Source: Octopus sinensis (lineage: Eukaryota). Taken from it: a DNA stretch of 64,000 nucleotides. Of the stretch, positions 8,205-10,049 are shown piece by piece; position 1 is the first letter of the stretch, and the number at the start of each line of letters is the position of its first letter. Location of the stretch: positions 75,578,001 to 75,642,000 of the forward strand of contig NC_043003.1 in assembly GCF_006345805.1 (NCBI RefSeq), read 5' to 3'. A program made the position numbers.

Positions 8205-10007
8205 ATATATATATATTTCAACAATTGAGGGTAAAATTAATTAATTAATCAATTTCACCAAGTATTCAGTATACAAAGGGACCATTTAAGGCGAATTCAA
8301 ATTATTACATTATATAAAAGGGCTTAGTAAAATAAATTACTTTGCCGCATACTGAACTCATTAGAAATAGCAGCTAAAAAACTTTTTTTAAACTATTTCT
8401 AATACTTAAAGAAAACCTCTCTCATATAGTGTTTGCTCAATTCAACTCACGCAAATATAGGGGTAGAGACATTAAAAAATCAAGTGCAAAGGTTATTTGA
8501 GAACGTACGTTTCAAGATTAGTCAACTCGACATTTCTATCATCAGCTCAGAACTCCCTGGTTTGGATTTGAAAACACTGAAAGTGGGAGCATACCCTTTC
8601 GGCTTCCTCTCGCTTCTGAAGATCTGCTCCCAACTAACAGTGCCAACAAACCCAAAAATGCAAGCGAAGAATTTCTGCTCTCCCCTTTCCACCAGCGTGG
8701 GTTAAAATCAGTAAACACTATGCTTTTTTCGGTAAAGTCCGCGGCATTATATAGAGAGAGATGAATTATAATTTCAACAATTGAGGGTAAAATTAATTAA
8801 TTAATCAATTTCACCAAGTATTCAGTATGCAAAGGGACCATTTAAGGCGAATTCAAATTATTACATTATATAAAAGGGCTTAGTAAAATAAATTACTTTG
8901 CCGCATACTGAACTCATTAGAAATAGCAGCTAAAAAACTTTTTTAAAACTATTTCTAATACTTAAAGAAAACCTCTCTCATATAGTGTTTGCTCAATTCA
9001 ACTCACGCAAATATGGGGGTAGAGACATTAAAAAATCAAGTGCAAAGGTTATTTGAGAACGTACGTTTCAAGGTTAGTCAACACGACATTTCTATCAACA
9101 GCTCAGAACTCCCTGGTTTGGATTTGAAAACACTGAAAGTGGGAGCATACCCTTTCGGCTTCCTCTCGCTTCTGAAGATCTGCTCCCAACTAACAGTGCC
9201 AACAAACCCAAAAATGCAAGCGAAGAATTTCTGCTCTCCCCTTTCCACCAGCGTGGGTTAAAATCAGTAAACACTATGCTTTTTTCGGTAAAGTCCGCGG
9301 CATTATATAGAGAGAGATGAATTATAATTTCAACAATTGAGGGTAAAATTAATTAATTAATCAATTTCACCAAGTATTCAGTATGCAAAGGGACCATTTA
9401 AGGCGTATTCAAATTATTACATTATATAAAAGGGCTTAGTAAAATAAATTACTTTGCCGCATACTGAACTCATTAGAAATAGCAGCTAAAAAACTTTTTT
9501 AAAACTATTTCTAATACTTAAAGAAAACCTCTCTCAATTGTTGAAATTATAATTCATCTCTCTCTATATAATGCCGCGGACTTTACCGAAAAAAGCATAG
9601 TGTTTACTGATTTTAACCCACGCTGGTGGAAAGGGGAGAGCAGAAATTCTTCGCTTGCATTTTTGGGTTTGTTGGCACTGTTAGTTGGGAGCAGATCTTC
9701 AGAAGCGAGAGGAAGCCGAAAGGGTATGCTCCCACTTTCAGTGTTTTCAAATCCAAACCAGGGAGTTCTGAGCTGATGATAGAAATGTCGTGTTGACTAA
9801 TCTTGAAACGTACGTTCTCAAATAACCTTTGCACTTGATTTTTTAATGTCTCTACCCCCATATTTGCGTGAGTTGAATTGAGCAAACACTATATGAGAGA
9901 GGTTTTCTTTAAGTATTAGAAATAGTTTTAAAAAAGTTTTTTAGCTGCTATTTCTAATGAGTTCAGTATGCGGCAAAGTAATTTATTTTACTAAGCCCTT
10001 TTATATA

Positions 10008-10049
<42 letters not shown>

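What the first reader, a model, noticed from the sequence alone, without database searches (positions are those of the whole stretch)
8215..10012. Second, unrelated retrozyme-like array (556-bp monomer) lying between two Penelope-like elements
Seen: about 2.4 tandem monomers plus an inverted arm, with HHRs at 8498, 9054 and 9769. Stem III is the palindrome ACGUACGU. I see no similarity to the 480-bp family outside the ribozyme core. Known: minimal HHRs with palindromic stem III can act as dimers in tandem transcripts. Inference: an independent non-autonomous ribozyme retroelement family whose tandem arrangement may be required for cleavage.
Basis: partly seen in the sequence, partly recalled or inferred. 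Interest (0 to 1): 0.88.

Follow-up and report, generated by a model that had tools for sequence, protein, structure and literature searches.

The report
Hammerhead retrozyme array, Penelope-style insertion
A 556-bp non-coding repeat with a hammerhead-ribozyme motif lies as 2.4 tandem copies plus a head-to-head inverted copy inside a TA microsatellite, the insertion pattern of Penelope-like retrotransposons, so it is a new member of a known class, not a new kind of element.

Summary
Units of 556 bp lie at 8217-8772, 8773-9328 and 9329-9536, with an inverted arm at 9533-10012. Each full unit and the arm carry a type I hammerhead (HHR) motif with the stem III palindrome ACGUACGU.

Corrections:
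- The ribozyme is on the minus strand in the direct copies.
- One of the 3 copies has a core change (CUGUUGA).
- Rfam recognises none of them.

My descriptor found 6 hits in the window, all in the 556-bp and 480-bp families. It found a mean of 0.115 hits per dinucleotide shuffle.

The locus fits a non-LTR retrozyme: non-coding, 36% GC, strongly self-paired RNA (z -6.4).

Two sense copies diverge head to head from a 4-nt microhomology, and both 3' ends abut (TA)n. They end at two different template sites. The 480-bp array and the left Penelope-like element (PLE) share the head-to-head plan. This matches published PLE insertion signatures (PMC8557442, PMC11167929).

The two families are otherwise unrelated but share short boxes at these 3' ends.

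Cleavage, circular RNA and genome-wide copies could not be tested.

The parts
8131..8216 (.). (TA)n microsatellite abutting the 3' end of the direct array
   Evidence: TRF period 2, 44.5 copies; junction sequence
8217..8772 (-). unit 1 of the 556-bp repeat (sense strand is minus); 4 private differences from the majority
8773..9328 (-). unit 2; 2 private differences, both inside the ribozyme
9329..9536 (-). partial unit 3 (208 nt), the 5'-truncated start of the 1320-nt sense array; contains no ribozyme
9533..9536 (.). head-to-head junction: 4 nt (CTCA) shared by the array and the arm (microhomology)
9533..10012 (+). inverted arm, 480 nt (0.86 unit), sense on plus; equals the majority sequence at every variable site it covers
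   Evidence: (I1, I2)
8498..8549 (-). HHR motif, copy 1: helix I UGAG/CUCA, CUGAUGA, helix II, GAAA, ACGUACGU, predicted cleavage between 8502 and 8501
9054..9105 (-). HHR motif, copy 2, degenerate: CUGUUGA (position 6, base 9098) and an A-C mismatch in helix II (base 9073)
9769..9820 (+). HHR motif of the inverted arm, core intact, predicted cleavage between 9816 and 9817
8217..8230 (-). box B (CCTCAATTGTTGAA) at the 3' end of the array, +285 from the cleavage site; matches 12 of 14 at the 3' end of the 480-bp family arm
9989..10012 (+). box A region (GCCCT...ATA) at the 3' end of the arm, +196 from the cleavage site; 10 of 14 match to the 3' end of the 480-bp array
10013..10046 (.). (TA)n abutting the 3' end of the arm and, on its other side, the 3' end of the right PLE
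4865..7956 (-). left PLE, main copy: RT, CX4CxxC linker and GIY-YIG with internal cysteines (Neptune-like by motif reading); 1 frameshift and 2 in-frame stops; 3' end abuts (TA)n
7957..8075 (+). 119-nt perfect inverted copy of the left PLE's 3' end (head to head with the main copy); 8076-8130 may be a one-sided 'tail'
10047..12065 (-). right PLE remnant: RT thumb and GIY-YIG without the CC pair (Hydra-like by motif reading); type I HHR-like motif at 10141-10200 (-); 3' end abuts (TA)n

Best explanation
This is a single insertion of a non-autonomous, ribozyme-bearing retroelement of the animal 'non-LTR retrozyme' kind. It was placed in a (TA)n microsatellite by the reverse transcriptase/endonuclease of a Penelope-like element.

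Shown directly:
- A 556-nt non-coding unit with a type I hammerhead motif.
- Two sense-strand copies of 1320 nt and 480 nt that diverge head to head from a 4-nt microhomology.
- Both 3' ends abut (TA)n. They end at two different template positions, +285 and +196 from the predicted cleavage site.

Inferred:
- The enzyme cut both strands of the AT-rich target.
- Each 3'-OH primed cDNA synthesis at one of two internal start sites on a circular or multimeric 556-nt RNA. One cDNA ran 2.37 units and the other 0.86.
- The two 5' ends were joined by microhomology.

In the source element the ribozyme would cut multimeric transcripts into 556-nt monomers, probably as a dimer through the palindromic stem III and possibly with protein help. 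A host ligase would circularise the monomers.

At this locus one of the two same-strand ribozymes is mutated in the core. The locus is more likely a dead copy than a source.
For: Anatomy.

HHR motif beyond chance: 6 hits in the window, all in two tandem families, against a mean of 0.115 in 200 shuffles.

Same HHR plan in three unrelated sequences of the window (556 family, 480 family, right PLE). Helix I is fully compensated. Helix II is closed by U/U followed by 3 Watson-Crick pairs that differ at all three positions between the 556 and 480 families.

Retrozyme-like properties:
- No frame of 100 aa or more in the array.
- GC 35.6%.
- Sense RNA folds at -164.7 kcal/mol, z -6.4, 0 of 100 shuffles as stable.
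- 64% of bases are paired in the circular fold.

Same architecture nearby:
- The independent 480-bp array has an inverted arm (32108-32733, 1.3 units) head to head with an array (32736-34265, 3.19 units). Both 3' ends lie in (TA)n, at two sites, +269 and +139.
- The left PLE has a 3092-nt main copy plus a perfect 119-nt inverted copy of its 3' end.

Literature:
- PLE insertions form partial tandems, often with an adjacent inverted 5'-truncated copy and a tail at one end. Naiad and Hydra PLEs prefer (TA)n (PMC8557442).
- A purified PLE protein cleaves and extends both DNA strands at AT-rich sites and starts reverse transcription at two internal RNA sites (PMC11167929).
- Retrozymes are proposed to be non-autonomous PLE derivatives (preprint 10.64898/2026.07.22.740005).

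Shared 3'-end boxes between the two families: B-B 12 of 14 (P about 0.002 for random position pairs), A-A 10 of 14 (P about 0.058).
Against: - No experiment here: cleavage, circular RNA and mobility are all untested.
- Rfam finds no hammerhead.
- The HHR lacks the G10.1-C11.1 pair that PMC4209133 calls highly conserved.
- Its catalytic fold is 9.8 kcal/mol above the predicted dimer MFE.
- One of 3 copies has a core change, and 3 of the 7 differences between copies fall in the roughly 55-nt ribozyme.
- Neither flanking PLE shows significant similarity to the 556 or 480 units in its 3' region. Between 89 and 431 of 500 shuffles reached the observed scores. Box B is absent from both PLEs. No partner element is therefore identified.
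- The distance between the two start sites (89 nt; 130 nt in the 480 family) is longer than the published 30-40 nt tail.
- The box comparison was made after seeing the junctions and rests on two families only.
- The (TA)n could be tails made by the enzyme rather than the target.
- Only one locus of the family is available.
Confidence: 0.65

Rival explanations
1. The array is a DNA-level product. A single inserted unit, or a solo PLE terminal repeat, was amplified into a minisatellite by unequal crossing-over. The inverted arm arose by a replication template switch or palindrome-forming rearrangement, not by reverse transcription.
For: The 2026 preprint proposes local amplification and unequal crossing-over for retrozyme arrays. 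Copies differ at 7 sites in a star-like pattern that fits any recent origin. A 4-nt microhomology is also typical of template-switch rearrangements.
Against: The same head-to-head plan with both outer ends in (TA)n occurs in two unrelated arrays, and the head-to-head plan also in an autonomous PLE in the same 64 kb. The outer ends coincide with shared boxes. Both are expected for primed cDNA ends and not for random rearrangement.
Confidence: 0.12
2. The 556-bp unit is simply the terminal repeat (pLTR) of an autonomous PLE present elsewhere in the genome. This locus would be a heavily 5'-truncated or internally deleted copy of that element, not an independent non-autonomous family.
For: In Xenopus, 24 of 57 retrozyme families matched 22 known transposable elements, 21 of them annotated as PLEs, at their termini. 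PLE HHRs sit in pLTRs. The HHR is of the PLE-like short palindromic stem III type.
Against: 2.37 consecutive units with a 556-nt period and no ORF between them mean the template itself repeated every 556 nt. There is no similarity to either PLE in the window. An ORF-bearing relative elsewhere cannot be excluded because no eukaryotic genome collection was available.
Confidence: 0.1
3. The arrays were mobilised by one of the LINE-like non-LTR elements of the window, with the inverted arm produced by twin priming. The neighbouring PLEs would be coincidental.
For: LINE-like RT copies are abundant in the window: 37027-40715, about 15000-18120 and about 58000-63950. Twin priming in LINEs (recalled, not from a call) also yields head-to-head inversions.
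Against: The LINE copies here end in (AAT)n or (ATA)n, not (TA)n. The 5'-truncated fragment at 12368-12749 has no inverted partner. Type I HHRs, (TA)n preference and two internal start sites are PLE traits in the literature read.
Confidence: 0.06
4. The hammerhead resemblance has no function and the locus is an ordinary minisatellite, or the inverted arm is an assembly artefact.
For: No Rfam match. The catalytic fold is not the MFE. 10.1-11.1 is non-canonical. PMC8557442 warns that such structures trouble assemblies.
Against: The descriptor statistics. The same plan with compensatory changes appears in three sequences. The motif occurs only in the two tandem families. The arm carries 2 differences from unit 2 and shares states with unit 1, which is not what a collapsed or misjoined duplicate of one unit would show.
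Confidence: 0.05

Closest known systems
Metazoan non-LTR retrozymes (Cervera & de la Pena 2020, PMC7229834; Li, Clavereau & Pollet 2026 preprint)
   Same: Non-coding tandem units of a few hundred bp. Type I HHR with a weak palindromic stem III. Low GC. Highly self-paired RNA. Co-occurrence with PLEs.
   Different: 556 bp exceeds the roughly 170-400 nt circular RNAs of the 2020 paper, though it lies within the 51-972 bp range of the preprint. The HHR has U/U instead of G10.1-C11.1. Expression and circularity are unknown. The head-to-head arm, (TA)n ends and two 3' end sites are not described for retrozymes in the texts I could search.
Minimal hammerheads of Penelope-like elements (Cervera & de la Pena 2014, PMC4209133)
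   Same: Type I topology, short helix I (4 bp), palindromic stem III implying action as a dimer, and a long interrupted helix II.
   Different: Stem III is an 8-nt palindrome rather than absent or 1-2 bp. There is no G10.1-C11.1. The motif is not in the pLTR of an ORF-bearing element at this locus.
PLE insertion structure (Craig et al. 2021, PMC8557442; Frangieh et al. 2024, PMC11167929)
   Same: Partial tandem, adjacent inverted 5'-truncated copy, extension present at one end only, (TA)n/AT-rich target, and two internal reverse-transcription start sites.
   Different: No RT/EN ORF in the unit. The segment between the two end sites is 89 nt, not 30-40 nt.
Non-autonomous Chlamys elements such as MRC1 of Chlamydomonas (PMC8557442, passage seen)
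   Same: ORF-less PLE dependants that form pLTRs and multicopy head-to-tail insertions.
   Different: Those resemble their autonomous partner at the 3' end and lack canonical HHRs. Here an HHR is present and no partner similarity was found in the window.

Membership tests
Non-LTR retrozyme | Head-to-tail tandem repeats of a short unit (150-450 bp in PMC7229834; 51-972 bp in the 2026 preprint) | tested here: met
   Period 556 bp, 2.37 units; size ranges
Non-LTR retrozyme | Type I HHR in every repeat (the preprint's definition of an active retrozyme) | tested here: not met
   2 of 3 motifs have an intact core; unit 2 reads CUGUUGA. The motif is present in all. Definition seen.
Non-LTR retrozyme | No protein-coding capacity; low GC (<50%) | tested here: met
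   No stop-to-stop frame of 100 aa or more in 8217-10012; GC 35.6%
Non-LTR retrozyme | RNA predicted to be stable and highly self-paired | tested here: met
   MFE -164.7 kcal/mol, z -6.4, 0 of 100 shuffles as stable; 64% paired as a circle
Non-LTR retrozyme | Self-cleavage and accumulation as circular RNA | not testable with these tools
   Needs transcripts, northern blots or circRNA sequencing
Hammerhead ribozyme (Rfam models) | Match to a curated hammerhead covariance model | tested here: not met
   No hit at gathering score or at E<=10. The 480-bp family HHR is missed too.
PLE minimal HHR (PMC4209133) | Conserved core boxes CUGANGA and GAAA with a UH cleavage site | tested here: met
   Met in 2 of 3 copies
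PLE minimal HHR (PMC4209133) | [quoted passage not shown] | tested here: not met
   Helix II opens with U/U, then A-U, G-C, A-U; criterion
PLE minimal HHR (PMC4209133) | Palindromic 15.2-16.2 / loop 3, allowing a dimeric helix III | tested here: met
   ACGUACGU (within AACGUACGUU) in 3 of 3 copies; cofold dimer gain -14.4 to -14.6 kcal/mol
PLE minimal HHR (PMC4209133) | Short helix I (4-5 bp) and long helix II (7-8 bp) | tested here: inconclusive
   Helix I is 4 bp. Helix II is 3 bp, a 3x3 internal loop, then 3-4 bp.
PLE-type insertion | Partial tandem with an adjacent inverted 5'-truncated copy | tested here: met
   definition
PLE-type insertion | Extension (tail) at one end only, reflecting two reverse-transcription start sites | tested here: inconclusive
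   The ends lie at +285 and +196, so one end extends 89 nt further than the other. The published tail is 30-40 nt.
PLE-type insertion | Insertion into (TA)n / AT-rich DNA | tested here: met
   Both ends abut (TA)n. No target-site duplication can be read in a microsatellite.
Penelope-like element (autonomous) | ORF with RT and GIY-YIG endonuclease | tested here: not met
   None in the array. Present only in the neighbours.

The most novel reading that the evidence does not exclude
Each retrozyme array is the product of one dual-strand, target-primed reverse transcription event by a (TA)n-targeting PLE enzyme on a circular 556-nt RNA. The two short boxes found at the 3' ends of both otherwise unrelated families (GCCCT...ATA and CCTYAATTGTTRAA) are the internal start or recognition sites of that enzyme. 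They would be the cis signal that ties animal retrozymes to their autonomous partner. A 2020 review said no such conserved motif was known (PMC7761336). The U/U-closed helix II shared by the two retrozyme HHRs and the Hydra-like PLE next door would then point to that PLE clade as the partner.
Probability: 0.3. Interest if true: 0.6.

Novelty: new member of a known kind. Interest (0 to 1): 0.42.

Why it matters
Which enzyme mobilises animal retrozymes is still argued mostly from co-occurrence and from similarity to PLE terminal repeats. This locus, its 480-bp neighbour and a PLE 140 bp away show the same insertion anatomy. They also show 3' ends at defined, partly shared template sites. If that holds genome-wide, it is direct structural evidence for PLE-mediated, both-strand priming of retrozyme RNA. 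It would also give testable start-site motifs for the in vitro system of PMC11167929. The element itself is an ordinary member of its class.

Tried and rejected
- Rfam at gathering and at E<=10: no hammerhead for either family. The only hits were weak miRNA, CRISPR-repeat and snoRNA matches in AT-rich or palindromic stretches, taken as chance.
- TRF cannot see periods above 500, so it did not report the array.
- Overall similarity of the 556 and 480 units: not significant.
- Similarity of either flanking PLE's 3' region to either unit: not significant.
- Box B in the PLEs: absent. The 12 matches against 4.0 expected come from the tandem copies.
- A strict search for an HHR in the left PLE found none. 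By eye there is a half-convincing motif near 4986-5035 (-), with CUGAUGC, a 6-bp helix II and a G-C closing pair, but no workable helix I or cleavage site. I do not count it.
- I first took 37027-40715 for a third PLE. It is a LINE-like element (RVT_1 and zf-RVT).
- PDB sequence searches with three PLE ORF pieces gave nothing useful. The best hit was E 0.13, to a defence-associated RT.
- Pfam support for the PLE calls is below cut-off: RVT_1 E 9.6e-4 and GIY-YIG E 0.012. The clade labels 'Neptune-like' and 'Hydra-like' rest on my reading of motifs against the descriptions, plus Atlas leads.
- MAFFT misaligned the 480-bp family HHR against the others. I therefore compared helices by coordinates in a script and did not use the count of structure pairs or build a covariance model.

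Unchecked:
- No eukaryotic genome collection was on hand, so other copies of the family, an ORF-bearing relative and the organism are unknown.
- Genome contigs (prokaryotes) and the phage, plasmid and E. coli collections were not used because they are irrelevant here.
The min-HHR alignments of PMC4209133 and the HHR file of PMC8557442 could show whether U/U-closed helix II variants are already described.
- Lunse et al. 2017 (PMC5785218) is not held. I know it only from reference lists.
- The essential role of A6 is recalled, not taken from a call.
- 'Not described for retrozymes' rests on searches and in-paper finds 29, 30 and 55 only.
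Full report
WHAT IS THERE

The window has no N. Between two (TA)n tracts (8131-8216 and 10013-10046) lies a repeat with a 556-bp period. TRF did not list it because its longest period is 500.

Direct units are 8217-8772, 8773-9328 and a partial 9329-9536. An inverted arm occupies 9533-10012: 480 nt, 99.6% complementary to 8862-9341 and 99.4% to 8306-8785. Array and arm share 4 nt (CTCA) at the junction.

The family has no other copy of 60 nt or more in the window.

The copies differ at 7 positions in about 1800 nt, and each difference is private to one copy: unit 1 has four, unit 2 two, unit 3 one, the arm none. 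The pattern is star-like and recent.

THE RIBOZYME

The hammerhead (HHR) motif reads on the minus strand in the direct units and on the plus strand in the arm. Its parts, in order, are:
- helix I, UGAG/CUCA;
- CUGAUGA;
- a 25-nt helix II;
- GAAA;
- the palindrome ACGUACGU;
- U at position 17.

Predicted cuts are at 8502|8501, 9058|9057 and 9816|9817.

Unit 2 reads CUGUUGA and has an A-C mismatch in helix II. Both of its private changes hit the ribozyme, and 3 of the 7 changes in the locus fall in the roughly 55-nt motif.

A descriptor scan of both strands found 6 hits, all in this family or the 480-bp family. Across 200 dinucleotide shuffles the mean was 0.115 hits, and 0.01 when helix III had to be 4 bp or more.

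Rfam finds nothing. It also misses the cleaner 480-bp family motif.

Helix II opens with U/U followed by three Watson-Crick pairs: AU, GC, AU here and CG, AU, UA in the 480 family. The right PLE's motif has the same U/U with AU, GC, CG after one extra A. That is the same plan with compensatory changes. It is not the G10.1-C11.1 pair that PMC4209133 describes as highly conserved.

Fold energies:
- Monomer catalytic fold: -2.1 kcal/mol, against an MFE of -7.0.
- Double hammerhead: -18.8, against a dimer MFE of -28.6 that extends the palindrome into the core.
- In the 480 family the double hammerhead is itself the MFE.

Dimer dependence is therefore plausible, but robust activity is doubtful. Published PLE-type HHRs cleave poorly in vitro or need protein.

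On a minus-strand transcript only two ribozymes are present, and one has the core change. By the double-hammerhead geometry (inference) and the recalled importance of A6, at most one of the two cuts needed to free the 9057-8502 monomer should be efficient.

RETROZYME-LIKE PROPERTIES

- No frame of 100 aa or more in the array.
- GC 35.6%.
- The sense RNA folds at -164.7 kcal/mol, z -6.4. The antisense gives z -4.5.
- 64% of bases are paired as a circle.

These match the description of non-LTR retrozymes. Consensus lengths in that class range from 51 to 972 bp in a 2026 preprint.

THE ARCHITECTURE

Read in the sense orientation, two copies start at the central junction and run outwards.

| Copy | Length | Template positions | 3' end (from the cut) |
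|---|---|---|---|
| Array | 1320 nt | 78 to 556, one whole unit, then 1 to 285 | +285 |
| Arm | 480 nt | 273 to 556, then 1 to 196 | +196 |

Both 3' ends abut (TA)n.

The 480-bp family has the same plan. An arm at 32108-32733 (1.3 units) lies head to head with an array at 32736-34265 (3.19 units). Two unmatched bases sit at the junction. The 3' ends lie in (TA)n at +269 and +139.

The left PLE has a similar plan. Its main copy is 4865-7956 on the minus strand, and a perfect 119-nt inverted copy of its own 3' end lies at 7957-8075. The main copy's 3' end abuts (TA)n. The inverted copy is followed by 55 nt and then (TA)n.

The right PLE's 3' end also abuts (TA)n.

The literature describes exactly these traits for PLEs:
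- partial tandems, an adjacent inverted 5'-truncated copy, a tail at one end, and (TA)n preference in Naiad and Hydra clades (PMC8557442, passages and section 11);
- a purified PLE protein that cuts and extends both strands at AT-rich DNA and starts reverse transcription at two internal sites (PMC11167929, main text).

I therefore read each array as one PLE-type integration of a circular or multimeric RNA.

SHARED BOXES

Overall the two families are unrelated. The 24 nt before their 3' ends match better than random position pairs do:
- CCTCAATTGTTGAA against CCTTAATTGTTAAA: 12 of 14, P about 0.002.
- The GCCCT...ATA ends: 10 of 14, P about 0.058.
- The cross pairs score 7 and 9.

This comparison was made after the fact and rests on two families. 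Neither PLE in the window carries box B or resembles either unit.

THE NEIGHBOURS

Left PLE:
- weak RVT_1 match;
- by eye, a CX4CxxC linker and a GIY-YIG with internal cysteines;
- one frameshift and two in-frame stops;
- Atlas leads to eukaryotic RT clusters.

Right PLE:
- an RT thumb and a GIY-YIG without the CC pair;
- Pfam GIY-YIG E 0.012, below cut-off;
- Atlas 0.95 to GIY-YIG clusters from cnidarians and echinoderms;
- a type I HHR-like motif at 10141-10200 (-).

The clade labels are my reading, not a tree.

VERDICT

What is worth keeping is that the arrays carry a full PLE insertion signature and possibly shared start-site boxes. I did not find either described for retrozymes in searches or in-paper finds 29, 30 and 55.

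Papers seen:
- PMC4209133: parts 1-2 of 4.
- PMC7229834, PMC7761336 and PMC6765202: passages only.
- PMC8557442: passages and section 11.
- PMC11167929: abstract and main text.
- The 2026 preprint: abstract, sections 12, 14 and 16, and passages.
- No supplements were seen.

Noticed in passing
32108-34265: The 480-bp HHR family has an inverted arm of 1.3 units (32108-32733) head to head with its 3.19-unit array. Both ends lie in (TA)n, and 2 unmatched bases sit at the junction. Its HHR forms the double hammerhead as the predicted dimer MFE.
   Followed up: yes
4865-4983 and 7957-8075; 8076-8130: A perfect 119-nt inverted repeat brackets the left PLE and is read as a head-to-head 5'-truncated copy. 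The 55 nt between it and the (TA)n tract may be a one-sided PLE 'tail'.
   Followed up: partly
10141-10200 (-): Type I HHR-like motif in the right PLE, about 105 nt from its 3' end. It has CUGACGA, a short helix II, GAAAC, a 2-bp helix III with a 6-nt loop, and a helix I of 3 bp, an internal loop, then 6 bp.
   Followed up: partly
about 4986-5035 (-): Possible degenerate minimal HHR in the left PLE: CUGAUGC, a 6-bp helix II with a G-C closing pair, and GAAA. I could not find a workable helix I or cleavage site.
   Followed up: partly
37027-40715 (+); about 15000-18120 (-); about 58000-63950 (-); 12368-12749 (+): Several copies of LINE-like non-LTR elements (RVT_1, zf-RVT) ending in (AAT)n or (ATA)n. 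The fragment at 12368-12749 is 94% identical to 40335-40715.
   Followed up: partly
8527, 9073, 9098: Three of the seven differences between the 556-bp copies fall inside the roughly 55-nt ribozyme, including both private changes of unit 2. This may be chance.
   Followed up: partly
26359-27263: A 443-bp unit made largely of TG/TA microsatellite is duplicated in tandem at 99% identity (TRF).
   Followed up: no
36763-36885: A 42-bp tandem repeat (2.9 copies, 97%) lies just upstream of the LINE-like element that starts near 37027.
   Followed up: no
3556-4607: About 1 kb of (TACA)n microsatellite. The window as a whole is very rich in simple repeats (101 TRF rows).
   Followed up: no
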